DNA of 56,121 nucleotides from an uncultured virus (IMG/VR IMGVR_UViG_3300044530_000636). Taxonomy: Duplodnaviria > Heunggongvirae > Uroviricota > Caudoviricetes. A model generated the notes under the pieces. It was not told the DNA's origin. It was given only the letters and a program-made list of their open reading frames with translations, and ran no database searches. Below are positions 27,149 to 48,111 of this stretch, in pieces. A program made the translations under genes and the position numbers. The DNA lies in the IMG/VR virus record IMGVR_UViG_3300044530_000636; one strand, given 5' to 3'. Each line of letters begins with the position of its first letter. The first letter of the stretch is position 1.

Positions 27149-27158
27149 TATATCCTCA

Positions 27159-34222: not shown

Positions 34223-34353
34223 AGTATTTTGATTTTGATAAACTAGAACAATGGGCTGATTTGTTGGATCGTGGTCAACAAACAATTTTGCTTGCTATTA
34301 TTATATTTTTAGTTTATACTTGGGTTAAATTGTTCTTGTCTTGGGATAACTAA
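34219..34353 (+). CDS. Small membrane protein (44 aa, not in ORF track)
   Basis: ATGA/TAATG-coupled to both neighbours; hydrophobic ILLAIIIFLVYTWV. Confidence 0.5.
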   Translation: MKYFDFDKLEQWADLLDRGQQTILLAIIIFLVYTWVKLFLSWDN

Positions 34354-34916
34354 TGAATATCTTTTATCTTTCTGATAATCCTGTAGAAGCTGCCGAGTGG
34401 ATGGTAGATCGTCACGTTGTTAAGATGATCCTCGAATCTGCTCAGCTGCTTTCGACTGCACATCGTGTTCTTGATGGTAAAGAAATACAGTTAGAAGTTC
34501 AGATCGAACAAGAAGATGGCACTTTTAAAACGAAAAAGAAAAAATGGTGGTTACTTGGAGATGGTCGTGAAGACATACTATATTCAGCTACGCACATTAA
34601 TCATCCGAGTTGTGTATGGACTCGGGCAAGTGTCGAGAATTATAATTGGCTCGTAGATCATTTCTTCGCTCTTATGAAGGAATATACATATCGTTATGAG
34701 AAAGAACATAAGTGTTTTGGTGAGTTGAGTTTTGCTTTGTGCACTCCTCCCAAAAATTTAGAAGAATACGATATGACTCTTATGCCATCTGCTATGGCCG
34801 ATGAATATAAAATTTCAGAAGATCCTATTGTAAACTATCGTAATTATTATAAGATGGGTAAGACTCATCTTCATAGTTGGAAAAAACGTAACCCTCCGGA
34901 GTGGATGTATGTCTAA
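34353..34916 (+). CDS. Pyrimidine-dimer DNA glycosylase-like protein (DenV-related family)
   Basis: MNIFYL..HVVKMILESAQLLSTAH, THINHP..W, YRNYY. Confidence 0.75.
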   Translation: MNIFYLSDNPVEAAEWMVDRHVVKMILESAQLLSTAHRVLDGKEIQLEVQIEQEDGTFKTKKKKWWLLGDGREDILYSATHINHPSCVWTRASVENYNWLVDHFFALMKEYTYRYEKEHKCFGELSFALCTPPKNLEEYDMTLMPSAMADEYKISEDPIVNYRNYYKMGKTHLHSWKKRNPPEWMYV

Positions 34917-35289
34917 TATGTATCAAGATGTAAAAGAATTTCAAACAGCAGTTGGTCAGAATATTGGTCAGGCTCCAGTGTTCCCTGAACCCGCAGAACG
35001 TGAATTGCGTATTAAACTTTTGAAAGAAGAATACGAAGAATACATACAAGGTGAATGCAAAAATGACTTGGAAAACATCGCTAAAGAGCTTGCTGATATT
35101 ATTTACATTGTCTGTGGGACTGCTGCATCTTACGGTATTCCCTTGGATAGAGTCTTCGACGAAGTCCATAGATCGAACATGGCAAAATTAGTTGATGGTA
35201 AAGTTATTCGTCGTGATGATGGTAAGATTCTAAAGCCAGAAGGATGGACCCCTCCTGACATTAAATCTATTCTTTATGGAGTTGAGTGA
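34909..35289 (+). CDS. MazG-like (PRA-PH-type) NTP pyrophosphohydrolase
   Basis: LLKEEYEE..KELADIIY..FDEVHRSNMAK..RDDGKILKP. Confidence 0.85.
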   Translation: MSNMYQDVKEFQTAVGQNIGQAPVFPEPAERELRIKLLKEEYEEYIQGECKNDLENIAKELADIIYIVCGTAASYGIPLDRVFDEVHRSNMAKLVDGKVIRRDDGKILKPEGWTPPDIKSILYGVE

Positions 35290-36659
35290 TGGTAAGACGT
35301 ATTGTCGCCAAGAATAAAATTGATTGCGAACATCTTCTGGGTCAGTTTGTCGATGAAAGTAATTACGATATTCTAATCGAAGAAGACACTGATTGTTATA
35401 TGCCCCCGCTCTGCGATCCTCTCGAAAAAGCTGAGTGTGGTATGGCTGCTTGCGATACTTGTGAAAAGGGCAATGACGAATTGCGTATTGCTTTCAAGTT
35501 TCGTAAAAACTATTTCAGTCAAGAAGAACAGGATATGGCTTATCGTGGCTTGAGAGAAGCTGCGACTGAAAGCCAGAATCGTGGCCATGCTGCTGGTCCT
35601 CGTGGTGAAATGCTTGCAGCGCAAAGCCGTGGTGGTAGAGATTGGGTTACTCCATATCAGATGGAGATACTAGAGTTCCTTATGAATGATGGTGCATCTC
35701 TTATTGATGATACATCAATCGAATCCATCAGAGAAAAATATAAAAACGGTGGTCCAAAAGGTGCTGAAGAAACACGTGGTGTTGTTTGGTTGCGTTCAGA
35801 GGTAACAAAGGTTTATCCAGAATATCATGATTGGTTTGATAAATGGGTGGATGGCCTAAGTAATAAACCACAGGAGGAAATTCATGCCGAAGCAAGAATG
35901 GTCGCAGAAAAGTGGGCTTCTGCCACTAATTACGCACAATCCGTATTCTCAGGTGTTGCTGGTTGGTACGATCGTTACCCTCGCATTCCTTACGGGCGTG
36001 CAACGTCATACACTGAAAAGCATCCAGAACTTTTCGAACTGGCATACCCATTCCTCCAATCACTGAATAAGGGTTTCAAGGAATTACTACCTTGGCGTTG
36101 GGGTAATCAGCGAGCAGCTGCAGATAAGTTAGATCCTCGGTTCCTTGTACCAGAAACTGTATTTACCACAATTACAGTTAATAAAACTTTCCGCACTGCC
36201 TGTCATCGAGACGCTGGTGATCTTGATGCTGGTCTTTCTAATCTACTCGTTCTAGGCACAGGAGAATATACTGGTGGCTATCTCGTATTTCCTGAGTATC
36301 GTGTTGCTGTTAATGTTCGTCCCGGTGATTTGCTCCTTGTTAACAACCACGAAATCATTCATGGTAATACTCCTATTGTTCTTAACAATCCGGATGATTC
36401 TACTTGTGAAAGAATCTCAGTAATTTGTTACTTCCGTGAGAAGATGCTAGAACTAAAGTCTTATGAGTATGAAGCGTTACGTAAACAATATGTCGAAGAA
36501 CGTCGTATGAATAAGGCTCATCCACTTCAGCGTCCACTATGGAATGGCGTCTCTCCTGGAATGTGGGATGACAAAGAATGGTATGAATATCTTCATGCTC
36601 ATAATATGAAAGATCCATACGGTAAAGACGCTGCTGCTTCATTGGAGTCATTCTTCTAA
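35286..36659 (+). CDS. TET/JBP-family 2OG-Fe(II) nucleic-acid base oxygenase
   Basis: FTTITVNKTFRTACHRDAGD..GGYLVFPEY..PGDLLL..IHGNTP..RISVICYFRE. Confidence 0.8.
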   Translation: MMVRRIVAKNKIDCEHLLGQFVDESNYDILIEEDTDCYMPPLCDPLEKAECGMAACDTCEKGNDELRIAFKFRKNYFSQEEQDMAYRGLREAATESQNRGHAAGPRGEMLAAQSRGGRDWVTPYQMEILEFLMNDGASLIDDTSIESIREKYKNGGPKGAEETRGVVWLRSEVTKVYPEYHDWFDKWVDGLSNKPQEEIHAEARMVAEKWASATNYAQSVFSGVAGWYDRYPRIPYGRATSYTEKHPELFELAYPFLQSLNKGFKELLPWRWGNQRAAADKLDPRFLVPETVFTTITVNKTFRTACHRDAGDLDAGLSNLLVLGTGEYTGGYLVFPEYRVAVNVRPGDLLLVNNHEIIHGNTPIVLNNPDDSTCERISVICYFREKMLELKSYEYEALRKQYVEERRMNKAHPLQRPLWNGVSPGMWDDKEWYEYLHAHNMKDPYGKDAAASLESFF

Positions 36660-37342
36660 TGTGCGGAGTGCTAGGAATAGCGATCAAGAAGCCGAGCGAG
36701 CAGGAATTCGAACTTGTTCGTCGGCTTTTTGTTCAGTCAATGATCCGTGGTAAACATGCCACTGGTGTATCATATGTCAAAGATGGCAAGGTTCACACTA
36801 TTAAAGAACCTGTTAATGCTTGCACATTCATAAACAATCAAGATATTCCTAGTTGGGTTAATGAAGATGGCAATCTATATTGTATTGGTCATGTTCGTTA
36901 CTCAACTAGCGATCTTGCTTACAATCAACCAATGGCAACCGAAGAACTTTCTATTGTTCATAATGGAGTTATCTCTCAGGAGAATCCAGAACAATGGAAA
37001 GAAACATTTGGTTATGATGTTATCACAAAGAATGATAGCGAACTTATTCTTCGTTGTTTAGAGAAAGGCGAACTCCCTTTACATAAGTTCCATCCTGCAA
37101 GCATGTCGGTTTGCACTCTTGATAAAGATAAAGTAATTACTGCTTTCCGTAACGAAGCCAGACCATTGCATTATTCTTATGGAGCAAATGGTATTATATT
37201 TGCATCAACAGCAGATATTCTAAAAAGAAGCGGATTAGATATTCAAGTAGCTGCTCCTATGTTTGAACATTTCATTATTGATAATTTCAAAGTTATAAGC
37301 TATAATAGGTATGAGTTTCCATCAATCGAGGACTTACAGTGA
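36659..37342 (+). CDS. Class-II glutamine amidotransferase (Ntn hydrolase)
   Basis: N-terminal MCGV, RGKHATG, GHVRYST, NQP, HNGVI, NDSE. Confidence 0.88.
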   Translation: MCGVLGIAIKKPSEQEFELVRRLFVQSMIRGKHATGVSYVKDGKVHTIKEPVNACTFINNQDIPSWVNEDGNLYCIGHVRYSTSDLAYNQPMATEELSIVHNGVISQENPEQWKETFGYDVITKNDSELILRCLEKGELPLHKFHPASMSVCTLDKDKVITAFRNEARPLHYSYGANGIIFASTADILKRSGLDIQVAAPMFEHFIIDNFKVISYNRYEFPSIEDLQ

Positions 37343-37980
37343 TATTTTTAACAGCAGATCAAGTTAATGGTATAATTGAAAAGTCTCCAGAAGGTAGAAA
37401 CACAAACTTTTTAAAAGCTGCACATTCACTATGGTTCAGGTTTAAGAACTACGATAAAGCACCGCCTGTTGCTCTTGAAGTAGATAATGAAATAGTTTCT
37501 ATTATCTTTGCAACATACAATCGTTCTGGATATACTAACCTGTATGAGATTGTAACTGTCCAAGGTAAAGAAGGTAAGGGTTACGCTTCCAAGATTTGGG
37601 AAGAATATATCTCATACGCAGTCAAAGAAAAACGTTCTGATAGATTAAAGATATCTTGCACGCCTTCTTCTGTTACATGGCATATGAGAAATGGTCTTTT
37701 ATTTTGGGCTGTTGATCCTACTGGTTCTCTTCGTTCTGATCAAAAATTATTTCCTACAAGAAAAGAGCAATTAGAATATCAACAGTATGGAGTTAATAAC
37801 CCTACTCAGGTGTTGCCACCAGAAAAAGTCATCGAACAATTTCTTTCTGAAGGTTTAGAGAATCATAATTTTGGCACAAAAAAGAAAACAAAGGTAGAAG
37901 AAGCAATAAATTCTGTTGGAAAGTATTGGTTGCGCTCTGCATTATATAACAATTCGTCCCTTGAAAGTTTCTTGAGTTGA
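37339..37980 (+). CDS. GNAT-like acetyltransferase
   Basis: Acetyl-CoA motif A-like LYEIVTVQGKEGKGYASKI. Confidence 0.65.
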   Translation: MIFLTADQVNGIIEKSPEGRNTNFLKAAHSLWFRFKNYDKAPPVALEVDNEIVSIIFATYNRSGYTNLYEIVTVQGKEGKGYASKIWEEYISYAVKEKRSDRLKISCTPSSVTWHMRNGLLFWAVDPTGSLRSDQKLFPTRKEQLEYQQYGVNNPTQVLPPEKVIEQFLSEGLENHNFGTKKKTKVEEAINSVGKYWLRSALYNNSSLESFLS

Positions 37981-38954
37981 AAGTTAAACAAGACTTTATT
38001 AATTGGTATAAGTGGTCACTTTCCATTAAGGATTGCGATCCGGCGATATTCATGACCAATTATCTTTTCAAAAGATTTGAGCATAACAGAGAACAAAAAC
38101 TCTGGATTGCTTGGATCTACGGCACAACGTATTATTTTCCAACAACATGGGTGATATGGAATGAGTTTCCTGATATGGAACTTGTTGGTCTTGATCGCCT
38201 AAAGGATTGGAACAATAAGAATTATAAACGCCTACGTTATCAAACAGACACTAAATGGAACAAAGGACATTTACCTGCGCAGTTTGAATCGTATAAGAAC
38301 TGGGTTGGAGATCGTTCCCAGATAGAAGCGTTTCGTCCGTTTCTTACTGGAACGCCAAGAGAAAACTTTGATATGCTATGGGATGAAGTGAAAACCAAGT
38401 TCCATAAGTTCGGTAGATATTCTACTTGGTTCTATTTACAAACATTAAAACAGTGTTGTGATCTGCCTATTGAACCTGGTAATCTAATGCTAGAAGATCA
38501 TTCAGGTTCTCGTTCTCATCGTAACGGTTTATGCCTCGCTGTTGGATTAGATCAATGGTATGATCAAAAACTAAATGCCAAACAGATAAACTATTTGGAC
38601 GGTCAGGCATATTATATTCTAAAAGAAGTTCAAGAGGAATTTCCTGACACTGATTATTTCGATATGGAAACGTGTCTTTGTTCTTTTAAAAAGTTATTCA
38701 GAGTAAAACATGGTCGTTACCTGAGTTACTATCTTGATCGTCAGGCAGAAGAAATTGCTCAATGTGAAAAGGATGGCTGGGATGGTATTGATTGGCAACC
38801 AATGTGGGACGCTCGAAATGAAACTCTAAATAATAAACTGTTGACAAACAAGATTGACAATAGTAAAATGGCTTTATATATTGAGAATGGCGTTCTAGAT
38901 TGCACAGGTTTGTTTGTTGAACCTGAGAGTGTCGGTATTGAAAGGTTTATGTAA
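37977..38954 (+). CDS. Amino-acid:DNA transferase (aGPT-Pplase2/AADT-like, HhH-glycosylase fold)
   Basis: KFGRYSTWFYLQTL helix-hairpin-helix, METCLCSFKK, GRYL.YY; adjacent P-loop kinase. Confidence 0.72.
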   Translation: MKVKQDFINWYKWSLSIKDCDPAIFMTNYLFKRFEHNREQKLWIAWIYGTTYYFPTTWVIWNEFPDMELVGLDRLKDWNNKNYKRLRYQTDTKWNKGHLPAQFESYKNWVGDRSQIEAFRPFLTGTPRENFDMLWDEVKTKFHKFGRYSTWFYLQTLKQCCDLPIEPGNLMLEDHSGSRSHRNGLCLAVGLDQWYDQKLNAKQINYLDGQAYYILKEVQEEFPDTDYFDMETCLCSFKKLFRVKHGRYLSYYLDRQAEEIAQCEKDGWDGIDWQPMWDARNETLNNKLLTNKIDNSKMALYIENGVLDCTGLFVEPESVGIERFM

Positions 38955-39493
38955 TGAAAGTGATTGCGATTGGTGGTGAGCCAGGTGCTGGCAAGTCTAC
39001 GTTAATGAAAGAAATTCTTACTAAGTTTGTTTGGTCTAAGATTTATGATAGCGTGAAGCTCGTTCCCTATCTTCAGTATGGAAAATATTATATTCTTGGT
39101 AAGTATGACGAAGGCGAAACCTTCTCGGGTACAGACCGTATGTCAATGGCGGTTCAGCCAGAAGCAATTAAATTCCTAGCAAGTTTAGATAAAGATGCGG
39201 TCGTTCTTTTCGAAGGCGATCGTCTTTTCACGTCAACGTTCCTAGAACATTGTGTTGAGAATTACGATACTGAAATCATTTATCTAGAAACTGATAAGGA
39301 AGTTCGCCAAGAGCGATACAAGGAACGTGGTAGCAATCAGAACGAAACTTGGTTGCAGGGTCGTGAAACTAAGATTGCTAATATTATGACAAACATGACT
39401 CTGATGTTTAACACTAATAGATATAAAAATAATAACAAAGACGATCAGAAATTTATTATTGAAGATATTATGAATAAATTGGAGAACTCATGA
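38954..39493 (+). CDS. P-loop kinase (candidate hydroxymethyl-pyrimidine DNA kinase)
   Basis: GGEPGAGKST, LGKY..FSGTDRMS, FEGDRL, RYKERGS. Confidence 0.75.
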   Translation: MKVIAIGGEPGAGKSTLMKEILTKFVWSKIYDSVKLVPYLQYGKYYILGKYDEGETFSGTDRMSMAVQPEAIKFLASLDKDAVVLFEGDRLFTSTFLEHCVENYDTEIIYLETDKEVRQERYKERGSNQNETWLQGRETKIANIMTNMTLMFNTNRYKNNNKDDQKFIIEDIMNKLENS

Positions 39494-39933
39494 CCAAAAC
39501 TTATAGATTTGAGAATGGCGATTATTATGGTCAACCGCTTTCTGCGTCAGCGCAGGCAATTGGTGCAACTGGTCCTACTGGTGCTGTTGGTTCAAAGCGA
39601 CAAGAAGATCCTTATGTTGGAATGAGCATGGATCCGCCAATTGCTTCAACTTGGCCGCCTAAATATAAATATAAGGAAGACGAAATTATTCGTGACTTCC
39701 ACGCCTATATCGACAAGACATATGGGCAACATTATATGACTGAAGAGCAAAATATAGAATGTTTCGACGTGTGGCTCGCCCTCGGTGATTCTATGCCTAC
39801 CTTCCGAAACACAGCTATTAAGTATCTCTGGCGCTACGGTAAGAAGAACGGTAGCAACAAAGCAGATCTTATGAAGGTTCTTCATTACACTCTTATGATG
39901 TTATACAACGATCATTATAAGGATAAGAAATGA
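39490..39933 (+). CDS. DUF3310-like protein (T7 gp1.7 nucleotide-kinase-related)
   Basis: QHY..IECFD..AIKYLWRYGKKNG..DLMK. Confidence 0.7.
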   Translation: MTKTYRFENGDYYGQPLSASAQAIGATGPTGAVGSKRQEDPYVGMSMDPPIASTWPPKYKYKEDEIIRDFHAYIDKTYGQHYMTEEQNIECFDVWLALGDSMPTFRNTAIKYLWRYGKKNGSNKADLMKVLHYTLMMLYNDHYKDKK

Positions 39934-40139
39934 AAGAATTGAAAGATTTTCATGATCATAACGAGCGTAGACATAGAGAATATATGTCTCATTTTATTAA
40001 TCTAGGAACAGGCATTGCTTGTCCTCATTGTGGAGATGAATTACAAGATACAAATCCCTCAGTAGTAACAACTTCGCTTCCTCCACAAAAAGCAGTTCAT
40101 TGTAATACTTGTAAGTTTAAAAGTTTTATAGTAGCATAA
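39930..40139 (+). CDS. Small zinc-ribbon protein
   Basis: CPHC..CNTC. Confidence 0.6.
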   Translation: MKELKDFHDHNERRHREYMSHFINLGTGIACPHCGDELQDTNPSVVTTSLPPQKAVHCNTCKFKSFIVA

Positions 40140-40151
40140 GAAAGGTATATA

Positions 40152-41018
40152 ATGGAAATTCAGATCCCTATTGAAAAATTGAGAGAGCGTGGTCTATTCG
40201 TCGCCACGCCAATGTATGGTGGACAGTGTGCAGGTATGTTCGCAAAGTCGTCAGCTGACTTGTCTGCTTTGTGCACACAGTATGGTATTCCTCTACAGTT
40301 TTATTATTTGTTTAATGAATCACTAATTCCTCGTGCACGTAACTATTGTTGTGACGAGTTTATGCGTTCCAATATGCAGCACATGATGTTTATTGATGCT
40401 GACATCGGATTCAATCCACAGGACGTCATTGCGCTTATGGCTCTTCAGGTTCAGGAAGAAGATAAGTATGACATCATTGGCGGACCATATCCAAAGAAGT
40501 GTATTTCTTGGGAAAAGGTTAAGCACGCTGTTGATAAGGGTGTTGCTGACGAAGATCCAAACGTCCTTGAAAAGTTCGTTGGCGATTATGTCTTCAATCC
40601 AAAGGGTGGGCAGCAGTCTATTCCTCTTAGCGAACCAGTAGAAGTTCTTGAAATTGGAACTGGCTTCATGATGGTTTCTAAGAAGGCAATGCAGAAGTTT
40701 GTCGATTCTTATCCAGAATATAATTATAAACCAGATCATGTCCGTACTGAACACTTTGATGGCACTCGTGAAATCATGATGTTCTTTCAGGCAGAGATCG
40801 ATCCTAAGTCTAAGCGTTATCTTTCAGAAGATTATTGGTTCTGTCAGAAGGCTCAGGAAATTGGACTGCGTACATGGTTCTGTCCATGGATGAAGATGCA
40901 GCACGTAGGCACCTATATCTTTGGTGGTTCGTTGGCTGATCTTGCTTCAGTTGGTGCTTCTGCGACCGCCGATCCAGGTGCACTTGGTAAGTATAAAGAC
41001 AAAGGCAAAAAGAAGTAA
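40152..41018 (+). CDS. GT-A fold glycosyltransferase-like protein
   Basis: VATPMYGG, ESLIPRARN, MFIDADI (DxD), IGTGFMM, LSEDYWFC, HVG. Confidence 0.75.
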   Translation: MEIQIPIEKLRERGLFVATPMYGGQCAGMFAKSSADLSALCTQYGIPLQFYYLFNESLIPRARNYCCDEFMRSNMQHMMFIDADIGFNPQDVIALMALQVQEEDKYDIIGGPYPKKCISWEKVKHAVDKGVADEDPNVLEKFVGDYVFNPKGGQQSIPLSEPVEVLEIGTGFMMVSKKAMQKFVDSYPEYNYKPDHVRTEHFDGTREIMMFFQAEIDPKSKRYLSEDYWFCQKAQEIGLRTWFCPWMKMQHVGTYIFGGSLADLASVGASATADPGALGKYKDKGKKK

Positions 41019-41032: not shown

Positions 41033-41686
41033 ATGAAGATTGATACTAATACAGTAAATGTTTTGAAGAACTTCTCAAAGATTAATCCTTCGATTGTTGT
41101 TCAGCAGGGTAATGTTCTTAAGACCATTTCCCCAAATAAGACCATTATGGCAAAGGCTACTGTTCCGACAGAGTTTACTAAGAAGTTTGCCATCTATGAT
41201 CTTAACCAGTTCCTTTCTAGCCTGAGTCTATACAATGACCCAGATCTAGAAATCGATGAGACTTTTGTTTATATGAAGGACTCTTCTTCGGAACAGGGCA
41301 AGTTCCTTCTTGCTGACGAGAGCACAATCACTAAGGCTCCAGAGAAGGATATTAACATTCCATCAACGGATGTTACCTTTACTCTAAAGAACGAAGATCT
41401 TAATAAGGTCGAGAAGGCTGCTGGTGTTTTGAGTCTGCCAGAAATCGTTGTTGCTGGTGACGGCAAGACTGTTTTCCTAAAGGCAGCTAACTCAAAGAAT
41501 CCAGGTAATGAGTTTTCTCTACCAATTGGAGAAACTACAAAGACTTTTAACGCAGTCTTTAAGTTTGAGAACATTAAGATTCTTCCTGGTGATTATGAGG
41601 TCACCATTTCAGCACGAGGTATTTCTAAGTTCATTGGTAAGGACGTGGAATACTTTATTGCAGTTGAGCAGCACTCAACATTCTAA
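41033..41686 (+). CDS. gp45: Sliding clamp
   Basis: LKNFSKINPSI, FAIYDLNQFL, ENIKILPGDYEV, YFIAVE. Confidence 0.92.
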   Translation: MKIDTNTVNVLKNFSKINPSIVVQQGNVLKTISPNKTIMAKATVPTEFTKKFAIYDLNQFLSSLSLYNDPDLEIDETFVYMKDSSSEQGKFLLADESTITKAPEKDINIPSTDVTFTLKNEDLNKVEKAAGVLSLPEIVVAGDGKTVFLKAANSKNPGNEFSLPIGETTKTFNAVFKFENIKILPGDYEVTISARGISKFIGKDVEYFIAVEQHSTF

Positions 41687-44216: not shown

Positions 44217-44415
44217 CAAAGTATTCAGCAACGGCGAAACATTTGTGAAAATGTCGGATCTACTTCCGTTAGTGATAGAGGCTGTTGTCGATTCTAGATT
44301 TAAATATCTTAAAGAATTAGAATACGAAAATCATCGTCATGCGAGAAAAATTCTCGACGAAGAATATAAACCAGCTGTTGAAAAATTAAAACAGATCATA
44401 GAAATATTGACGTGA
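44206..44415 (+). CDS. Hypothetical protein
   Basis: 69-aa ORF overlapping both neighbours. Confidence 0.5.
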   Translation: MMSDKVFSNGETFVKMSDLLPLVIEAVVDSRFKYLKELEYENHRHARKILDEEYKPAVEKLKQIIEILT

Positions 44416-45140
44416 TAAAAATAAAAGAATCGTTCGATGACAAATCGAAAACATATAACAAATATTATGTTTTTGACGAACAGATATATGAAAAAGAATT
44501 ATTCGGCGATCAATATAGAAATGAAATGGGGAACCATTGGGATTTAGATGGCGAAAAACAATTAAATATGTTGATAGATAATGGCCTGAAAAAAGATATG
44601 AATTTTTTGGAGATTGGCTGCGGGTATATGAGGGCAGGATCTCACATAATAAATTTTTTAGATCCGTTTAAATATTATGGAATAGACGTAAATAAAAAAT
44701 CTCTAATAATAGGTGTGAACAACGAGTTATATAAAAAAGGTTTAATAGATAAAATAACAGAAAACAATTTTTTAGCTACTGATAATTTTCATATCAACAA
44801 TTTCGATATAAAATTTGACATGGCTCTGGCAAATTCGGTTTTCACTTTTTTGCCTATAGAAAAATTAAAAATGTTTTTGAAAGATTCTTATAATAGCTTT
44901 AACGAAAAATCTAAAATCATTATATCTTTTTGGATCGTTGAAGATTCTTTTGATACATCTAAACCTTTTGAGTTTTCAGAAGAGAACTATTTCTCAAGAA
45001 CAACATATTATAACAGACCACCATATTATACAAAGATTTCGGATATTGAAAAAAGTTGCGATGGGCTTTGGAAATTCAAACAAATAAACGTTTTTCGATA
45101 CCAATTAGGACAATCTTTTTTCTTGTTTGAAAGATTGTAA
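44412..45140 (+). CDS. Class I SAM-dependent methyltransferase
   Basis: FLEIGCGYMR motif I, YYGIDV, FDMALANSVFT. Confidence 0.8.
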   Translation: MIKIKESFDDKSKTYNKYYVFDEQIYEKELFGDQYRNEMGNHWDLDGEKQLNMLIDNGLKKDMNFLEIGCGYMRAGSHIINFLDPFKYYGIDVNKKSLIIGVNNELYKKGLIDKITENNFLATDNFHINNFDIKFDMALANSVFTFLPIEKLKMFLKDSYNSFNEKSKIIISFWIVEDSFDTSKPFEFSEENYFSRTTYYNRPPYYTKISDIEKSCDGLWKFKQINVFRYQLGQSFFLFERL

Positions 45141-45172
45141 TTTTCTAATTTTGTAGTAGAATAGAAATTCGA

Positions 45173-45604
45173 TTGGAGATTTCTATGTCTATGCATATCT
45201 TACCTGCTTATTATACCACGACTGTTAGTAAACGTAAGCTCAACCGTAAGAGTAAGGCTAAGACTAAGCTAGTCTCTGACCACGATAGGTGGTTGTTATC
45301 GAAGGGTCTTCATCCCGATCAGATAAAGTTGAAAAAAGGTGTTGACAAAAACTGGAAAAAGAAGTATACTGAGGATATGAAGGTTGATCGTGAGGGTTAC
45401 GTTTCCTCAGGTTTGTCAGGTTCTAAGTCTGCCTGTGCTAAACGGGACATCATGACCAACCTTCATAAAGAACCAGAGCATGTTCAGAAGGAAATTCTGA
45501 AGAAGGCTAGTCTAGTTATGCCGCTCTATAACAAGGGCGGTCTGCAGTATGCTGGTCCAGACGTAGATCTTACTACTGTTGGATCAAAATCTCGAAGAGG
45601 ATGA
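45173..45604 (+). CDS. Hypothetical basic protein
   Basis: K/R-rich; PLYNKGGLQY motif. Confidence 0.55.
   Translation: MEISMSMHILPAYYTTTVSKRKLNRKSKAKTKLVSDHDRWLLSKGLHPDQIKLKKGVDKNWKKKYTEDMKVDREGYVSSGLSGSKSACAKRDIMTNLHKEPEHVQKEILKKASLVMPLYNKGGLQYAGPDVDLTTVGSKSRRG
45342..45370 (+). promoter_or_regulatory. Sigma70-like promoter (intragenic)
   Basis: TTGACA-N17-TATACT. Confidence 0.55.
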
Positions 45605-45612
45605 CTAAATAG

Positions 45613-45813
45613 ATGGCTACGAATATTAAACTTTCAGAAGTATTCATGAATGTTTCAGAGGGTATCACACTCAATCGTTATGAGAACGGTTGGATGGTGG
45701 AGGTCTCTGGCAACGATCACGACGATCGGTGGCAGAATAAAAAGTTTATCTTCTCTGATCTAAAATCAGTGTTGACTTTTGTGGAAGAATATAGTAAGAT
45801 TAATCTATCCTAA
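45613..45813 (+). CDS. Hypothetical protein
   Basis: 66 aa; RYENGWMVEVSG. Confidence 0.55.
   Translation: MATNIKLSEVFMNVSEGITLNRYENGWMVEVSGNDHDDRWQNKKFIFSDLKSVLTFVEEYSKINLS
45772..45800 (+). promoter_or_regulatory. Sigma70-like promoter
   Basis: TTGACT-N17-TAAGAT upstream of the ORF at 45826. Confidence 0.5.
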
Positions 45814-45825
45814 GAGGAGAAAACG

Positions 45826-46008
45826 ATGAGTGGTATGGGAAATATCTACATCCAGAGACAAGATGATACTGGTAACTGGAGAACCTATACTGTTACATCT
45901 AATAATGATTTGCTGATTATTTCGGCAATGAAAAGCCTCAAAGATCAGTTTCCGGACAGTCGTGTCCGTGCTATCGATGAGAAGGGTATGTTAGTTAACA
46001 TAATTTGA
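45826..46008 (+). CDS. Hypothetical protein
   Basis: 60 aa, GAGGAG RBS. Confidence 0.55.
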   Translation: MSGMGNIYIQRQDDTGNWRTYTVTSNNDLLIISAMKSLKDQFPDSRVRAIDEKGMLVNII

Positions 46009-46031
46009 CTTGAGAAAGAAAGAGGTATATA

Positions 46032-46295
46032 ATGGTTCAGAATGCAACTCAGCTAGATAAGGTTTTCGAGGCTCTTGTTAATCGTGGCGAGGAACTTACT
46101 GCAGCGCAGATTAAGGCTCGTTATGGTGCAGGCAATCCGCACGATCTTGTCTATAAGATTCGTCAGATGGGTTATGCTATCTATCTAAACGAATCGAAGA
46201 ATTCAAAGGGCGAAACTGTCGCTAAGTATCGCTGTGGTAAACCAAGCCGCAAGATTATCGCTGCTGGTTATCGAGCGTTGGCCGCTGGTCTCTGA
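46032..46295 (+). CDS. Hypothetical protein, possible winged helix-turn-helix
   Basis: GEELTAAQI..V.KIRQMGYAIY; GAGG RBS. Confidence 0.55.
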   Translation: MVQNATQLDKVFEALVNRGEELTAAQIKARYGAGNPHDLVYKIRQMGYAIYLNESKNSKGETVAKYRCGKPSRKIIAAGYRALAAGL

Positions 46296-46300
46296 TTAAT

Positions 46301-46330
46301 AGAGGGGCGGTCCTAGTGGCCGCCTTTTTT
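46301..46330 (+). terminator. Rho-independent terminator
   Basis: GGCGGTC-ctagt-GGCCGCC-TTTTTT. Confidence 0.75.
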
Positions 46331-46332
46331 AT

Positions 46333-46412
46333 GGGAGTGTGTGTCCGGAATTGGTTACGGCAAGGTCTGCAAAACCTAAAATATGTGGGTTCGAGTCCCA
46401 TCACTCCCTCCA
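46333..46412 (+). tRNA. tRNA-Cys(GCA)
   Basis: GGGAGTG/CACTCCC acceptor, CT-GCA-AA loop, GTTCGA, U73-CCA. Confidence 0.85.
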
Positions 46413-46420
46413 AAAAGTTG

Positions 46421-46449
46421 TTGACTTCTTCGGAAGTTTAGGTTATAAT
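46421..46449 (+). promoter_or_regulatory. Sigma70-like promoter for tRNA array segment 1
   Basis: TTGACT-N17-TATAAT. Confidence 0.75.
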
Positions 46450-46453
46450 GAAT

Positions 46454-46598
46454 ATATAATGCTTAGATAGGTACAGGCTCGTGCGAGCAAGGCGCCAGTA
46501 AATACTGATGCTCAAACCTTGTATCTTTATCCGTGGGCTCTGGTTGCAACCATCTCCGTCCGAGATATAGTAAACCTGTATCTTTCTAAGTGTTATAT
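46454..46598 (+). ncRNA. Candidate structured ncRNA A
   Basis: About 23-bp closing stem (ATATAATGCTTAGA.AGGTACAGG / CCTGTATCT.TCTAAGTGTTATAT, with G-U pairs) between the promoter and tRNA-Ile. Confidence 0.55.
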
Positions 46599-46673
46599 TG
46601 TTCCATAGCACAACGGTTAGTGCAAACGACTGATAATCGTTAGATCTAAGTTCGATTCTTAGTGGAACAACCA
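46599..46673 (+). tRNA. tRNA-Ile(GAT)
   Basis: TGTTCCA/TGGAACA, AACGA-CTGATAA-TCGTT, CCA. Confidence 0.9.
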
Positions 46674-46747
46674 AGAATACTCCCATATGCCGACCTACCA
46701 CATGCGGTTTTGGGGAAGGGCTGTGTGGTAGCAGCCCGAGAGTTTAT

Positions 46748-46822
46748 GGTCCCTTCGTCTATCGGTTAGGACATCAGACTTTCAATCTGAGAAGAGGAGT
46801 TCGATTCCCCCAGGAGTCACCA
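46748..46822 (+). tRNA. tRNA-Glu(TTC), mismatched stems (possibly degenerate)
   Basis: TCAGA-CTTTCAA-TCTGA and CCA; T-stem AGGAG/CCCCC and acceptor contain mismatches. Confidence 0.65.
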
Positions 46823-46828
46823 GTTTAT

Positions 46829-46904
46829 GGACGAGTAGCTCAGTTGGTAGAGCAGCCGACTCTTAATCGGCTTGTCGTGGGTTCGATCCCCTCCTCGTCT
46901 ACCA
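46829..46904 (+). tRNA. tRNA-Lys(CTT)
   Basis: GCCGA-CTCTTAA-TCGGC, 76 nt, CCA. Confidence 0.92.
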
Positions 46905-46999
46905 TTTGGAACATAACAACAGGACGCTGGCTCTGTGAAGTAAGATATCGGGTTGATCTCCGAGAAGGTATGGAGAGTGTTATGTTCCTACTTTATTTT

Positions 47000-47072
47000 G
47001 GACCCATAGCTCAATAGGTAGAGCAGTTGACTTTTAATCAATAGGTTCCCAGTTCAAATCTGGGTGGGTCTA
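47000..47072 (+). tRNA. tRNA-Lys(TTT), no encoded CCA
   Basis: TTGA-CTTTTAA-TCAA; GGACCCA/TGGGTCT-A followed by CAT. Confidence 0.85.
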
Positions 47073-47080
47073 CATAAGCA

Positions 47081-47129
47081 CTCCGAATCACTAAATAGCA
47101 ATGACAATAAGACTATTAGTGATTCGGAG
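47081..47129 (+). promoter_or_regulatory. RBS-sequestering hairpin containing a late-promoter-like ACTAAATA
   Basis: Perfect 14-bp stem CTCCGAATCACTAA/TTAGTGATTCGGAG covering GGAG of the Shine-Dalgarno. Confidence 0.7.
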
Positions 47130-47138
47130 GTTAGCGCA

Positions 47139-47798: not shown

Positions 47799-47864
47799 CT
47801 CAATTGGGAGAGCGCAGCACTGTCACTGCTGAGGTAGCGAGATCGAAACTCGTCGCTCCCGCCA
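47789..47864 (+). tRNA. tRNA-Asp(GTC)
   Basis: CAGCA-CTGTCAC-TGCTG, G73-CCA. Confidence 0.9.
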
Positions 47865-47873
47865 CTTATATAT

Positions 47874-47965
47874 GGGGGATGGTGTTGGTACACAGGGAGA
47901 CCTTATAAGTCTTTCAGCGCCCGATTAGCGTTCTCGACTCGGTTCGAATCCGGGATCCCCTACCA
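47874..47965 (+). tRNA. Atypical tRNA with TAT anticodon (nominally Ile), long variable arm
   Basis: GGGGGAT/ATCCCCT-A-CCA, GGAGAC-CTTATAA-GTCTTT, 4-nt D-loop, GTTCGAAT. Confidence 0.7.
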
Positions 47966-47968
47966 AAT

Positions 47969-48058: not shown

Positions 48059-48067
48059 AAAAAGTTA

Positions 48068-48096: not shown

Positions 48097-48111
48097 AACT
48101 AAATAGAATAC

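What the first reader, a model, noticed from the sequence alone, without database searches (positions are those of the whole stretch)
34909..41018. Candidate DNA-hypermodification operon: TET/JBP oxygenase, glutamine amidotransferase, GNAT, amino-acid:DNA transferase and kinase
Seen: five genes (35286-39493) joined by overlapping stop/start codons (TAATG, GTGA, TTGA, TAATG), flanked by MazG-like, DUF3310-like and GT-A genes, just before gp45/44/62. Known: TET/JBP enzymes oxidise the 5-methyl of T or 5mC in DNA; in phages such as ViI, M6 and PaMx11 a kinase phosphorylates 5hmU, an AADT/aGPT-Pplase2 enzyme swaps the phosphate for an amino acid, and PaMx11 ends with an acetyltransferase (5-acetylaminomethyl-dU), but those phages make 5hmU in the nucleotide pool. 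Inference: 5hmU is made post-replicatively by the oxygenase, and the amidotransferase supplies NH3 or trims a glutamyl/glutaminyl adduct before acetylation. No C5-methyltransferase is in the window, which favours T as substrate. Similar neighbourhoods have been predicted computationally; I know of no characterisation of this combination.
Basis: partly seen in the sequence, partly recalled or inferred. Interest (0 to 1): 0.88.

Follow-up and report, generated by a model that had tools for sequence, protein, structure and literature searches.

The report
Clamp-tailed phage thymine hypermodification cassette
An uncultured T4-like phage carries a tightly packed gene set of an already published kind that most likely oxidises thymine in its finished DNA and builds an acylated amino side chain on it, and three of its enzymes end in the short peptide that related phages' DNA polymerases carry for holding the sliding clamp.

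Summary
Window 34909-41018 holds translationally coupled genes for a MazG-like protein, a TET/JBP dioxygenase, a stand-alone class-II glutamine amidotransferase (GATase), a divergent GNAT, an amino-acid:DNA transferase (AADT), a P-loop kinase and a DUF3310 protein, just upstream of gp45/44/62.

The family calls hold. The catalytic residues are invariant, and the TET and GNAT folds were confirmed by modelling. No C5-methyltransferase or ThyA-type hydroxymethylase was found in four related records, including one that is 98% complete; the near-identical record G001 has ThyX. Thymine in DNA is therefore the likely substrate.

This cassette type is already in print (Lee 2021; O'Toole 2026), but its product base is unknown.

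Three points are added here:
- The GATase travels only with one AADT subtype (17 of 17 clusters against 0 of 8). This fits nitrogen feeding to give 5-aminomethyl-dU, which the GNAT would then acylate.
- TET, GNAT and AADT end in the tail that related phages' gp43 polymerases carry, so they may dock on the gp45 clamp.
- A homologous cassette in non-T4 phages has a ParB gene instead, and none of its enzymes has the tail.

No binding or chemistry has been measured. Earlier notes of this scan record the same cassette and tails on other genomes.

The parts
34353..34916 (+). Conserved upstream neighbour (phrog_624 'DNA binding protein'; weak Pyr_excise hit). It overlaps MazG by 8 nt. Not shown to belong to the pathway.
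   Evidence: Present only in the closer T4-like relatives.
34909..35289 (+). MazG-like (PRA-PH family) nucleotide pyrophosphohydrolase. A flanking gene with no shown role in the pathway.
   Evidence: Pfam PRA-PH 66.7 bits, phrog_671 E 1.2e-42. Absent from many relatives that keep the cassette.
35286..36659 (+). TET/JBP-type (5mYOX) Fe(II)/2OG dioxygenase, 457 aa. Predicted thymine-in-DNA hydroxylase that makes 5hmU.
   Evidence: Tet_JBP 82.8 bits. H307, D309, H359 and R376 are invariant in 25 sequences. AF2 pLDDT 81.5. Foldseek top hits are NgTET1, CcTet, TET2 and CMD1, E 3.6e-10 to 1e-7.
36639..36656 (+). C-terminal tail SLESFF of TET: candidate gp45 clamp-docking peptide.
   Evidence: 79 of 90 TET ORFs match the tail regex. 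gp43 of relatives ends NLEDFFND, TLEDFFS, ATLEDFFG, ATLDSFFA. Low-pLDDT linker followed by a short helix at 453-456.
36659..37342 (+). Stand-alone class-II (Ntn) glutamine amidotransferase domain, 227 aa. Predicted nitrogen donor for the AADT.
   Evidence: GATase_6 42.8 bits. C2, R80, N102-G103 and D126 are invariant in 15 sequences. It co-occurs only with the type-1 AADT.
37339..37980 (+). Divergent GNAT acyltransferase, 213 aa, from a small family. Predicted N-acylation of the aminomethyl group on DNA.
   Evidence: hhalign to the canonical GNATs of relatives: probability 79%, E 1.6e-5. 21 of 30 divergent family members pass Pfam GNAT cut-offs. AF2 pLDDT 96.2. Foldseek top hits are PA4794, SpeG and GCN5, E 4e-6.
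37957..37977 (+). C-terminal tail SLESFLS of the GNAT: candidate clamp-docking peptide.
   Evidence: 15 of 23 family ORFs match the tail regex. Of the 8 that do not, 7 come from the L102-L109 sub-lineage (in L104-L108 TET is short and untailed; for L102 and L109 no complete TET ORF was recovered) and 1 is L055.
37977..38954 (+). Amino-acid:DNA transferase (AADT, formerly aGPT-Pplase2), 325 aa, 'type 1' subtype.
   Evidence: Pfam ADDT 91.6 bits. E231 and C235 are invariant in 17 sequences including M6 gp51 and PaMx11 gp46, where the aligned Cys247 is the proposed nucleophile (PMC11472151 passages).
38934..38951 (+). C-terminal tail GIERFM of the AADT: a weaker candidate clamp-docking peptide.
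   Evidence: One of only 3 of 74 window ORFs that match the tail regex. Only 18 of 45 type-1 AADT ORFs match it.
38954..39493 (+). P-loop kinase (Ploopntkinase3), 179 aa. Predicted 5hmU-DNA kinase.
   Evidence: PF18751 49.4 bits. BLASTP to M6 gp54 (5-hmdU DNA kinase) gives E 3e-5 and 28% identity over 141 aa. P-loop GEPGAGKS. No clamp tail in 0 of 63 ORFs.
39490..39933 (+). DUF3310-like protein. A conserved neighbour whose role is unknown.
   Evidence: Pfam 23.9 bits (cut-off 24); phrog_480 E 2.6e-24. Also present in relatives that have only TET plus a glycosyltransferase.
39930..40139 (+). Small Cys-rich (zinc-ribbon-like) ORF, 69 aa. Role unknown.
   Evidence: phrog_30869 E 3e-7. Coupled to DUF3310 by an ATGA overlap.
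40152..41018 (+). GT-A-like protein (phrog_1574) with an invariant DxD (D82, D84). A conserved gene just upstream of gp45, not tied to TET.
   Evidence: No Pfam hit and no PDB sequence hit. Invariant columns. Homologues occur in phages that gave no TET match (Sinorhizobium phiM12/M7/M19, Synechococcus ACG-2014f).
41033..41686 (+). gp45 sliding clamp: the proposed docking platform.
   Evidence: gp45-slide_C 65 bits; phrog_223 E 7e-69.

Best explanation
This is a thymidine-hypermodification cassette of a T4-like phage that starts from ordinary thymine in polymerised DNA. Every chemical step below is inferred; none was measured.

1. The TET/JBP-type dioxygenase hydroxylates thymine to 5-hydroxymethyluracil. 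This follows from family, catalytic residues, fold and the lack of any other route to 5hmU or 5mC.
2. The P-loop kinase phosphorylates the hydroxyl, as in M6, ViI and PaMx11.
3. The AADT uses its conserved cysteine (C235) to expel phosphate and add a nitrogen nucleophile.
4. The stand-alone class-II glutamine amidotransferase is found only with this AADT subtype. It supplies that nitrogen, either as ammonia from glutamine or by cleaving a gamma-glutamyl amide. The product would be 5-aminomethyl-dU.
5. The GNAT, an optional add-on in this lineage, acylates the amine to give 5-acetylaminomethyl-dU or a similar N-acyl base.

TET, the GNAT and less clearly the AADT end in the same short acidic-hydrophobic peptide that closes the gp43 polymerase of related phages. 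They probably work from the gp45 sliding clamp on newly copied DNA. This would take the place of the ParB-like activator that the homologous cassette has in non-T4 phages.

Sub-odds: TET-primed thymine hypermodification 0.85; nitrogen from the GATase giving an aminomethyl base 0.45; clamp docking 0.6. The single confidence figure given (0.6) is for the statement taken broadly: the pathway type is right and at least one of the two added mechanisms holds.
For: Families, catalytic residues and folds.

Substrate. No PF00145 (C5-MTase) and no PF00303 (ThyA-like) match in 0 of 4 records, G001-G004, which are 86, 98, 87 and 82% complete. ThyX is present in G001 and a dCMP deaminase lies in the window. 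O'Toole 2026 shows T-to-5hmU activity for phage 5mYOX clades that lack a neighbouring C5-MT (PMC13229309, sections 5-6).

Module logic.
- Among 54 loci with complete TET and AADT ORFs, there are 25 AADT clusters at 90% identity. All 17 type-1 clusters have the GATase and 0 of 8 type-2 clusters do. At 70% identity the split is 7 of 7 against 0 of 4.
- The GNAT-like gene occurs only together with GATase, AADT and kinase, in 18 of 37 type-1 loci.
- Other type-1 relatives carry a canonical GNAT in the same slot: 3 of 3 scanned pass Pfam.
- The best structural matches of the GNAT are amine N-acetyltransferases.
- PaMx11 shows that acetylation of 5-aminomethyl-dU exists (PMC8989533).

Clamp tails.
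- The tail regex matches 3 of 74 window ORFs, and these are exactly TET, GNAT and AADT.
- In G002 it matches 2 of 229 ORFs, gp43 and TET. In 500 shuffles the mean was 1.16 for the loose pattern and 0.034 for the strict one.
- By family it matches 79 of 90 TET ORFs, 15 of 23 GNAT-like ORFs, and 0 of 46 GATase, 0 of 63 kinase, 0 of 65 GT-A-like and 0 of 52 DUF3310 ORFs.
- All 6 TAGT and all 3 group-1 GT ORFs next to TET in relatives end the same way, judged by eye.
- Tails follow the phage's own polymerase. DLP_6: ATLDSFFA and ATLGDFFV. C48C1: ATLEDFFG and ISLEEFFV. Cr30: polymerase ADLSSLFD, TAGT-like SDLSKLF, TET GATLF.
- Literature basis: T4 gp43, gp55 and gp33 bind gp45 by similar hydrophobic-acidic C-termini (PMC2988020 passages). 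The T4 motif is LDFLF (PMC6212786 passages). T4 alpha-glucosyltransferase binds gp45 (PMC13216743 passages).

Complex prediction, three copies of gp45 plus TET residues 386-457: verdict 'weak support', score 0.59, best of 3 controls 0.01.
- The mark was reached by 116 of 157 solved complexes and 2 of 215 mismatched pairs.
- At 0.60 or under it was reached by only 18 of those 157 solved complexes and by both mismatches that passed.
- The runs agree in 100% of contacts and the partner's pLDDT is at least 67.
- My own alignments and three clamp copies make the job unlike the calibration.
- Similar clamp-peptide complexes are solved, so the pass may come from memory.

Natural control. In L104-L108 the neighbouring genes are a repressor, a DnaD-like primosome protein, terminase and portal. 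There the homologous cassette has a ParB-like gene (phrog_620, E 7e-45) directly upstream of a short 318-aa TET, and TET, GNAT and AADT all lack the tail.
Against: No chemistry, binding or expression was measured.

The kinase must also act on DNA, yet it has no tail (0 of 63 ORFs).

Only 18 of 45 type-1 AADT ORFs match the tail regex. In G002 neither the AADT (ends GLERFT) nor the GNAT matches it.

The window's gp55 ends VGVEKFSEVEENEE and does not match the regex, although T4 gp55 is a clamp client.

The window's own gp43 was not available: G001 lacks it. The polymerase tail is therefore read from relatives (G002: TET 85% and gp45 90% identical to the window's).

The complex prediction is only 'weak support'.

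Some class-B T4-like relatives carry a 431-483-aa ORF with a sub-threshold ParB_N hit (14 bits in 1 of 4). Clamp tails and a ParB-like protein may therefore coexist rather than replace one another.

The GATase could act on an appended glutamine or glutamate instead of feeding ammonia. In class-B relatives it sits beside an Amidoligase_2-like gene (1 of 4 scanned passes the Pfam cut-off, 2 fall just below), which suggests carboxylate chemistry.

The window's GNAT shows no similarity to PaMx11 gp48.

The kinase falls in PF18751 and not in the 5-hmdU DNA kinase family PF18748.

One earlier scan note on clamp tails is flagged 'part of it fell'; the reason could not be retrieved.
Confidence: 0.6

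Rival explanations
1. The AADT appends a whole amino acid (glycine, serine, glutamine or glutamate), as in M6, ViI and PaMx11. The GATase then tailors it, either by deamidating an appended glutamine or, with a ligase, by amidating a carboxylate. The GNAT acetylates the adduct. The final base would be an acylated amino-acyl thymidine and not an aminomethyl derivative.
For: All characterised AADTs transfer amino acids or putrescine (PMC8989533 Table 1). The closest cultured AADT homologues are those of ViI-like phages, at about 30% identity. Class-B relatives put an Amidoligase_2-like gene next to the GATase, which suits carboxylate amidation. Lee 2021 lists amidoligase and glutaminotransferase domains as being of unknown function.
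Against: This window and 17 further type-1 loci lack the amidoligase yet keep the GATase, so the GATase must have a role of its own with the AADT. An Ntn amidohydrolase cannot cut the C-N amine bond of an N-alpha-linked amino acid. A GNAT needs a free amine, and its best structural matches are primary-amine acetyltransferases. No FAD lyase, PLP enzyme or radical-SAM enzyme lies in the cassette.
Confidence: 0.3
2. The dioxygenase acts on 5-methylcytosine, made by a host or an undetected phage methylase, and the cassette hypermodifies 5hmC and not thymine.
For: Phage TETs of clades A and B oxidise 5mC, and Burke 2021 proposed that P-loop kinases might phosphorylate 5hmC in some contigs (PMC8256090 passages). 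O'Toole 2026 reports that the two reconstituted enzymes also oxidise 5mC (abstract).
Against: No C5-MTase in 0 of 4 related records, including one that is 98% complete, and none among the window ORFs scanned. AADTs and their kinases are characterised only on 5hmU. O'Toole 2026 assigns 5mYOXs without a neighbouring C5-MT to thymine, and names those linked to GATase, kinase and AADT as T-hypermodification machinery.
Confidence: 0.05
3. The shared C-terminal peptides are not clamp-docking sites. They might bind another common partner (for example ssDNA-binding protein or a packaging or nucleoid factor), serve as a stability signal, or be shared through recombination between neighbouring genes.
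For: No binding has been measured and the complex prediction is only 'weak support'. The kinase lacks the tail, AADT tails are variable, and gp55 of the window does not match. One earlier scan note on this idea is flagged as partly fallen.
Against: In the 98%-complete G002 the only other ORF with the tail is the polymerase (2 of 229), whose tail is the established gp45 ligand in T4 and RB69 (PMC2988020). The tails shift together with the polymerase tail in Cr30. Unrelated folds carry the tail (dioxygenase, GNAT, AADT, two GT families). All tails are lost together in a non-T4 lineage. T4 alpha-GT is already known to bind gp45 (PMC13216743).
Confidence: 0.3
4. The pathway is wider than five genes. 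The GT-A-like protein, DUF3310 and MazG would take part, for example by glycosylating a share of the 5hmU (base-J-like) or by clearing a nucleotide pool.
For: The genes are stop-start coupled with the cassette. Glycosyltransferases are the commonest 5mYOX neighbours (31%; PMC13229309 section 12). GT-A-like homologues lie before gp45 in DLP_6 and Cr30, which also have the TET.
Against: The GT-A-like gene occurs in phages that gave no TET match (phiM12/M7/M19, ACG-2014f). It keeps its place before gp45 whatever the cassette type and has no clamp tail (0 of 65). DUF3310 and MazG are absent from many loci that keep the cassette.
Confidence: 0.15

Closest known systems
TET_JBP/5mYOX-initiated thymidine-hypermodification clusters of metaviromes (Lee et al. 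2021, NAR, PMC8989533; O'Toole et al. 2026, PNAS, PMC13229309, Clade C1 'ParB-dependent' subclass)
   Same: A TET/JBP dioxygenase takes the place of a dUMP hydroxymethylase and sits beside a P-loop kinase, an AADT and a GATase, with no C5-MT. A homologous cassette with a ParB gene directly upstream was found here in non-T4 contigs. Identity to the window's proteins there is TET 42%, GATase 47%, GNAT 48%, AADT 59% and kinase 40%.
   Different: No ParB gene was detected in the window (Pfam scan of the cassette and its flanks; the other window ORFs were scanned with Pfam or PHROGs only, and not all of them) or in G001. The TET is about 140 aa longer than the ParB-linked form, with an internal insert and a 60-aa C-terminal extension that ends in a polymerase-like tail. 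The cassette lies in the replication module of a T4-like genome. The product is not determined in either paper. I could not place this TET in their clades: none of six IMG identifiers of my contigs occurs in their 12 supplementary files.
PaMx11 pathway to 5-acetylaminomethyl-dU (gp49 kinase, gp46 glycine:DNA transferase, gp47 FAD lyase, gp48 acetyltransferase)
   Same: Kinase, AADT and GNAT are clustered. The same Pfam ADDT family and the same catalytic Cys/Glu columns are present. The end product probably has the same chemical logic, an N-acylated aminomethyl group.
   Different: In PaMx11 5hmU comes from the nucleotide pool through a ThyA-like enzyme; here a DNA dioxygenase supplies it. There is no FAD lyase here, and a class-II GATase stands in its place. 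The GNAT has no detectable similarity to gp48. The AADT is about 14% identical. The kinase belongs to a sister Pfam family.
gp45 clamp ligands of T4/RB69: C-terminal tails of gp43, gp55 and gp33, the internal LDFLF loop of T4 ligase, and T4 alpha-glucosyltransferase
   Same: A short acidic-hydrophobic peptide at the very C-terminus behind a flexible linker, of the same kind as the phage group's own polymerase tail. There is a precedent for a DNA-modifying enzyme (alpha-GT) that binds gp45 (PMC2988020, PMC6212786, PMC13216743 passages).
   Different: The motif here is L(E/D)xFF and not LDFLF. It sits on a dioxygenase, a GNAT, an AADT and two glycosyltransferase families. Binding is not measured. 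I found no paper that reports such tails on these enzymes (search: 45 papers held at least 3 of the 4 terms, 12 were listed, and two were searched for clamp terms).
Trypanosome JBP1/2 and base J
   Same: Post-replicative hydroxylation of thymine in DNA by a TET/JBP enzyme as the priming step for a bulkier base.
   Different: There is no J-binding domain or SNF2 domain; the GenBank 'SNF2 DNA repair protein' labels on the Cr30 and DLP_6 homologues are not borne out by Pfam for the window protein. The downstream chemistry is kinase plus transferase, not glucosylation.

Membership tests
TET/JBP (5mYOX) DNA dioxygenases | Match to Pfam PF12851 above the gathering score | tested here: met
   82.8 bits against a cut-off of 34.9, residues 239-385.
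TET/JBP (5mYOX) DNA dioxygenases | HxD...H iron triad and 2OG-binding Arg (residue roles recalled) | tested here: met
   H307, D309, H359 and R376 are invariant in 25 sequences; local sequence shown.
TET/JBP (5mYOX) DNA dioxygenases | Jelly-roll fold closest to solved TET enzymes | tested here: met
   AF2 pLDDT 81.5, pTM 0.72. Foldseek ranks 1-26 are NgTET1, CcTet, TET2 and CMD1, E 3.6e-10 to 3e-7.
TET/JBP (5mYOX) DNA dioxygenases | Oxidation of T (or 5mC) in DNA | not testable with these tools
   Needs expression and nucleoside analysis.
ParB-dependent 5mYOX subclass (O'Toole 2026) | Co-located ParB-like activator gene | tested here: not met
   No ParB family appeared in the scans of window ORFs; the cassette and its flanks were scanned with both Pfam and PHROGs, and the rest with one library only or not at all. 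No PF02195 match in G001 at E<=1. A ParB-like gene is present upstream of the short TET in the homologous non-T4 cassette.
Amino-acid:DNA transferase (AADT / aGPT-Pplase2, PF18724) | Pfam match above the cut-off, shared with M6 gp51 and PaMx11 gp46 | tested here: met
   Window 91.6 bits; M6 gp51 159.6; PaMx11 gp46 97.1; Cr30 179.3.
Amino-acid:DNA transferase (AADT / aGPT-Pplase2, PF18724) | Catalytic cysteine (PaMx11 Cys247) that attacks C6 | tested here: met
   C235 and E231 are invariant across 17 sequences, and C235 aligns with PaMx11 C247 (PMC11472151 passages).
Amino-acid:DNA transferase (AADT / aGPT-Pplase2, PF18724) | Identity of the nucleophile that is transferred | not testable with these tools
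   Only a co-occurrence argument is available.
5-hmdU DNA kinase (PF18748 HMUDK_HMUD1) | Match to the family model | tested here: not met
   The window kinase hits PF18751 Ploopntkinase3 (49.4 bits) and not PF18748. M6 gp54 hits PF18748 at 65.1 bits.
5-hmdU DNA kinase (PF18748 HMUDK_HMUD1) | Sequence relatedness to a characterised member, plus a P-loop | tested here: met
   BLASTP to M6 gp54 gives E 3e-5 and 28% identity over 141 aa. P-loop GEPGAGKS. It works like the family, but is filed in a sister family.
Class-II (Ntn) glutamine amidotransferases | Pfam GATase_6/7 above the cut-off and an N-terminal Cys after Met | tested here: met
   42.8 bits (cut-off 27) and 29.6 bits (cut-off 25). M1 and C2 are invariant in 15 sequences.
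Class-II (Ntn) glutamine amidotransferases | Glutamine-binding Arg and Asp and the oxyanion Asn-Gly (residue roles recalled from PurF/GlmS) | tested here: met
   R80 (GHxRYSTSD), N102-G103 (HNG) and D126 (NDSE) are invariant.
Class-II (Ntn) glutamine amidotransferases | Fused or partnered synthase domain that receives the ammonia | tested here: not met
   A 227-aa stand-alone domain. The partner is inferred to be the type-1 AADT from 17 of 17 against 0 of 8 co-occurrence.
GNAT acyltransferases | Pfam GNAT model above the cut-off | tested here: not met
   The window protein scores 17.3 bits against a cut-off of 20.7. However, 21 of 30 divergent members of its family pass, 2 fall just below and 7 have no hit.
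GNAT acyltransferases | GNAT fold and acetyl-CoA motif A (Q/RxxGxG/A; motif recalled) | tested here: met
   AF2 pLDDT 96.2, pTM 0.89. Foldseek top hits are PA4794, SpeG and GCN5, E 4e-6 to 5e-5. The sequence reads QGKEGKGYA. hhalign to canonical GNATs gives E 1.6e-5.
gp45 sliding-clamp ligands of T4-like phages | C-terminal acidic-hydrophobic peptide like that of the phage group's own gp43 | tested here: met
   The window's own gp43 was not available.
gp45 sliding-clamp ligands of T4-like phages | Physical binding to gp45 | tested here: inconclusive
   Complex prediction 'weak support': score 0.59 against a best control of 0.01, with the calibration caveats. There is no measurement.

The most novel reading that the evidence does not exclude
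In T4-like phages, post-replicative thymine hypermodification is carried out from the replication clamp. The T-dioxygenase, the DNA transferase and the acyltransferase (and, in relatives, glycosyltransferases) have each acquired the polymerase's gp45-docking tail. The tail replaces the ParB-like activator that the same cassette needs in phages without their own clamp, and it marks only newly copied phage DNA. Within the cassette, a stand-alone glutamine amidotransferase feeds ammonia to a dedicated AADT subtype, which would make that subtype an 'ammonia:DNA transferase'. This gives 5-aminomethyl-dU in one step, without the glycine and FAD-lyase detour of PaMx11.
Probability: 0.35. Interest if true: 0.8.

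Novelty: new variant of a known kind. Interest (0 to 1): 0.6.

Why it matters
The cassette type is published, but two open questions become directly testable with these genes.

First, what does the recurrent GATase do? Lee 2021 and O'Toole 2026 both note it, and neither assigns it a function. The comparison here points to one experiment: kinase, AADT and GATase acting on 5hmU DNA with 15N-amide glutamine.

Second, how is a slow, sequence-selective T-dioxygenase brought to phage DNA? O'Toole 2026 found a ParB-like activator and could not explain it. The same cassette occurs with ParB and no tails in non-T4 phages, and with polymerase-type clamp tails and no ParB in T4-like phages. That points to a common need to be held on DNA by a ring or clamp.

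If this is right, it would be a bacterial-virus counterpart of PCNA-tethered maintenance methylation. It would also offer a handle for using these enzymes as tools, for example by co-supplying the clamp and its loader.

Tried and rejected
- **Megablast of the region against 50,697 phage records:** no match.
- **The window's own assembly:** not held. I used the near-identical record G001 instead. G001 lacks gp43 and no longer matches the window at the two probes taken at 50,000 and 56,000, while the probe at 40,000 still matches.
- **ParB:**
  - No PF02195 match in G001.
  - In G002 only a 14-bit sub-threshold hit, inside a 431-aa ORF that the window does not have.
  - hmmscan found ParB_N in 1 of 4 members of that ORF family, at 14 bits.
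  - A profile search against PDB gave only chance-level hits.
  - I left this as inconclusive.
- **GT-A claim:** no Pfam family and no PDB sequence match. Homologues give only sub-threshold GT2 or Anp1 hits.
- **GNAT against PaMx11 gp48, and AADT against PaMx11 gp46, by BLASTP:** no significant similarity. Membership was settled by profiles and alignments.
- **Placing the TET in O'Toole's clades:** none of six IMG identifiers of my contigs occurs in their 12 supplementary files. Their sequences were not used.
- **Iyer et al. 2013 (the first computational prediction):** not held, so what I say of it is recalled.
- **DLP_6 paper (PMC5349666, passages):** it describes an 18-enzyme restriction panel, but the passages I saw do not state the outcome, so they give no evidence for modified DNA.
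- **Earlier scan note flagged 'part of it fell':** I could not retrieve which part.
- **Promoter scan:** 31 sites against 25.9 expected, which is not informative.
- **Not attempted:** sequencing-run and expression look-ups.

Full report
**What is there.**
The window is part of a T4-like myovirus. It carries the structural genes gp13-gp23, UvsY, UvsW, gp55, gp47/46, gp45/44/62, RegA, PhoH and a dCMP deaminase.

Between gp46 and gp45 lies a run of stop-start-coupled genes:
- phrog_624 protein (34353-34916)
- MazG-like protein (34909-35289)
- TET/JBP dioxygenase (35286-36659)
- class-II GATase (36659-37342)
- a 213-aa GNAT (37339-37980)
- AADT (37977-38954)
- P-loop kinase (38954-39493)
- DUF3310 protein (39490-39933)
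- a small Cys-rich ORF (39930-40139)

After a 12-nt gap comes a GT-A-like ORF (40152-41018), and then gp45.

**Are the families right?**
- **TET.** Tet_JBP scores 82.8 bits. The iron triad H307/D309/H359 and R376 are invariant in 25 homologues. The AF2 model has pLDDT 81.5, and its best PDB matches are NgTET1, CcTet, human TET2 and CMD1.
- **GATase.** It keeps the Ntn nucleophile C2 and the R80, N102-G103 and D126 motifs in 15 of 15 sequences. It is a stand-alone 227-aa domain.
- **AADT.** It scores 91.6 bits on PF18724, the family of M6 gp51 and PaMx11 gp46. E231 and C235 are invariant in 17 sequences, and C235 aligns with PaMx11 Cys247, the proposed nucleophile (PMC11472151, passages).
- **Kinase.** It falls in Ploopntkinase3, not in the 5-hmdU-kinase model that M6 gp54 matches. 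It is still related to gp54 (E 3e-5).
- **GNAT.** This was the weak point: 17.3 bits, below the cut-off, with no PHROG. It belongs to a small family of 79 representative clusters among 1.84 billion proteins. Of 30 divergent members scanned, 21 pass Pfam GNAT cut-offs. The family profile aligns with the canonical GNATs of relatives (hhalign E 1.6e-5). The model is very confident (pLDDT 96.2), and its best matches are amine N-acetyltransferases.
- **GT-A-like.** The label could not be confirmed by sequence. The family does have an invariant DxD.

**Substrate.**
The window's own assembly is not held. The near-identical record G001 shares 83% of sampled words and is 86% complete. It has ThyX but no ThyA-like enzyme and no C5-methyltransferase. 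The same two absences hold in G002 (98% complete), G003 and G004. Thymine already in DNA is therefore the only visible source of a 5-hydroxymethylpyrimidine. This matches O'Toole 2026, who showed T-to-5hmU activity for phage 5mYOXs that lack a neighbouring C5-MT (PMC13229309, sections 5, 6).

**What is already known.**
Lee 2021 described metagenomic contigs in which a TET_JBP gene replaces the dUMP hydroxymethylase next to thymidine-hypermodification genes. They also noted amidoligase and glutaminotransferase domains of unknown function (PMC8989533, passages of section 21). O'Toole 2026 state that their ParB-dependent subclass is 'consistently linked' with GATases, P-loop kinases and AADTs (section 5). 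The cassette is therefore a member of a published kind, and its product base is not known.

**Comparative anatomy.**
I retrieved 125 TET relatives from viral contigs (80 kept) and 24 loci for the GNAT. I then mapped all cassette proteins onto the 103 loci. The slot between gp46 and gp45 is a swap-shop with four classes:

| Class | Gene content between TET and the clamp region |
|---|---|
| A (this window) | TET-GATase-GNAT'-AADT-kinase |
| B | TET-GATase-Amidoligase_2-like-canonical GNAT-(431-483-aa ORF)-AADT-kinase |
| C | TET with a divergent AADT (22-33% identity) and kinase, no GATase, often with inositol-1-phosphate synthase or an N6/N4 methylase |
| D | TET with a TET-associated or group-1 glycosyltransferase only |

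These classes rest. On dereplicated data the GATase goes with the type-1 AADT in 17 of 17 clusters and with the type-2 AADT in 0 of 8. The window-type GNAT occurs only where GATase, AADT and kinase are present, in 18 of 37 type-1 loci.

The GATase keeps its place when the amidoligase is absent, so its constant partner is the AADT. An Ntn amidohydrolase cannot cut an N-alpha amine linkage. The simplest reading is that it delivers nitrogen, as ammonia or through a gamma-glutamyl amide, giving 5-aminomethyl-dU. The GNAT then acylates this base. In class B an ATP-dependent ligase may extend it instead. This is inference. A whole amino-acid adduct tailored by the GATase remains a serious rival.

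**Clamp tails.**
The TET alignment ends in a conserved SLExFF, the GNAT family in SLExFL, and the window AADT in GIERFM. I noticed this before consulting the scan's earlier notes.
- A regex for the tail matches 3 of 74 window ORFs, and these are exactly those three enzymes.
- It matches 5 of 232 ORFs in G001: the same three plus two looser matches.
- It matches 2 of 229 ORFs in G002: the gp43 polymerase and TET. In 500 shuffles the mean was 0.034 for the strict form.
- gp43 ends NLEDFFND in G002 and TLEDFFS in G003.
- By family the regex matches 79 of 90 TET, 15 of 23 GNAT-like, 18 of 45 type-1 AADT and 4 of 19 type-2 AADT ORFs. It matches 0 of 46 GATase, 0 of 63 kinase, 0 of 65 GT-A-like and 0 of 52 DUF3310 ORFs.
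- All 6 TAGT and all 3 group-1 GT ORFs beside TET in relatives end the same way, judged by eye.
- In cultured phages the tails follow the polymerase:

| Phage | gp43 tail | TET tail | Other |
|---|---|---|---|
| DLP_6 | ATLDSFFA | ATLGDFFV | |
| C48C1 | ATLEDFFG | ISLEEFFV | |
| Cr30 | ADLSSLFD | GATLF | TAGT-like: SDLSKLF |

In T4 the acidic-hydrophobic C-termini of gp43, gp55 and gp33 are interchangeable gp45 ligands (PMC2988020). The T4 motif is LDFLF (PMC6212786). T4 alpha-glucosyltransferase binds gp45 (PMC13216743; Sommer 2004 as cited there).

In both AF2 models the tail is a short helix behind a low-confidence linker.

A complex prediction of three gp45 copies with TET residues 386-457 gave 'weak support': score 0.59, best of 3 controls 0.01.
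- The mark was reached by 116 of 157 solved complexes and 2 of 215 mismatches.
- At 0.60 or under it was reached by only 18 of the 157 solved complexes and by both mismatches that passed.
- The runs agree in 100% of contacts, and the partner's pLDDT is at least 67.
- My own alignments and three clamp copies make the job unlike the calibration.
- Solved clamp-peptide complexes exist, so the pass may come from memory.

**A natural control.**
One sub-lineage of the class-A cassette (L104-L108) lies in contigs with a repressor, a DnaD-like primosome protein, terminase and portal. These are not T4-like phages. A ParB-like gene (phrog_620, E 7e-45) sits directly upstream of a short 318-aa TET. TET, GNAT and AADT all lack the tail. 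This is the architecture that O'Toole 2026 call ParB-dependent.

The window has the reverse arrangement: no ParB was detected, the TET is longer, and the tails are present. This suggests that ParB and clamp docking answer the same need.

**Caveats.**
- Some class-B T4-like relatives carry an ORF with a sub-threshold ParB_N hit.
- The kinase has no tail.
- AADT tails are variable.
- gp55 of the window does not match the regex.
- The window's own gp43 was not available.

**Earlier notes of this scan.**
Look-ups made after my own analysis show that other agents recorded the same cassette type, the ammonia-feeding idea and the clamp tails on other genomes. These are unchecked AI notes and are not independent support. 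One of them is flagged 'part of it fell' without detail. One note's remark on co-variation with the polymerase tail prompted the test.

**Verdict.**
The cassette is a new member of a published kind with an unknown product. The constant GATase-AADT pairing and the contrast between clamp tails and ParB make it a new variant that is worth an experiment.

Noticed in passing
window 46335-53118: An array of 25 tRNA genes on the + strand. A GIY-YIG-like ORF (47064-47798), an HNH ORF (50362-50787) and a metallophosphatase ORF (49754-50254) are interspersed. This explains the GC rise at 48-50 kb.
   Followed up: no
window 10167-10793, 10809-11399, 26537-27271 (-), 50971-51561: Four further small 2OG-Fe(II) oxygenase genes (2OG-FeII_Oxy_3 / Oxy_5; phrog_61). 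Two of them lie in tandem inside the tail-fibre region. Their substrates are unknown and they are unrelated to the TET.
   Followed up: no
L010:11488-12783 and homologues in L011, L031, L047 (relatives, not in the window): A 431-483-aa ORF lies between the GNAT and the AADT in class-B cassettes. It has a sub-threshold ParB_N hit (14 bits in 1 of 4) and a consensus ILDGNHTLxAA that resembles the ParB/Srx motif (recalled). It may be a ParB-like activator in T4-like phages that also carry clamp tails.
   Followed up: partly
window 37324-37339 (C-terminus of the GATase) and 15 homologues: The GATase family ends in an invariant D-x-Q (mostly EDLQ), unlike the clamp tail. It may be a docking motif for its partner enzyme.
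   Followed up: no
L002 (Cr30), L015, L034: Type-2 AADT cassettes carry a myo-inositol-1-phosphate synthase gene between the AADT and the kinase. This hints at an inositol-derived thymine modification, and one of the phages (Cr30) is cultured.
   Followed up: no
L003 (phage C48C1) 8323-10355; L001 (DLP_6) 5274-6965: The same TET clade sits next to a UDP-galactopyranose mutase in C48C1 and next to a 563-aa nucleotidyltransferase in DLP_6, which suggests sugar-based modifications of 5hmU. The GenBank label 'SNF2 DNA repair protein' on these TETs looks like a carried-over misannotation.
   Followed up: partly
window 40152-41018 and 65 homologous ORFs: The GT-A-like proteins mostly end in lysine-rich tails (for example KDKGKKK). 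The gene keeps its place just upstream of gp45 in all cassette classes, and it also occurs in Sinorhizobium and Synechococcus T4-like phages that gave no TET match.
   Followed up: partly
window 44412-45140: A class-I SAM methyltransferase-like ORF (Methyltransf_12 at 26.1 bits, below the cut-off of 30) lies downstream of RegA. Its target is unknown.
   Followed up: no
window about 45000-56121 compared with G001: The nearest held record G001 matches the window at probes taken at 1, 5,000, 20,000 and 40,000, but not at 50,000 or 56,000. The tRNA-rich right end differs between the two phages.
   Followed up: no
window 35412-35480 (TET residues about 43-65): A Cys-rich segment in the N-terminal part of the TET (CDPLEKAECGMAACDTCEKG) is present in some T4-like homologues and deleted in others. 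It may be a zinc site. The model has low confidence there.
   Followed up: no
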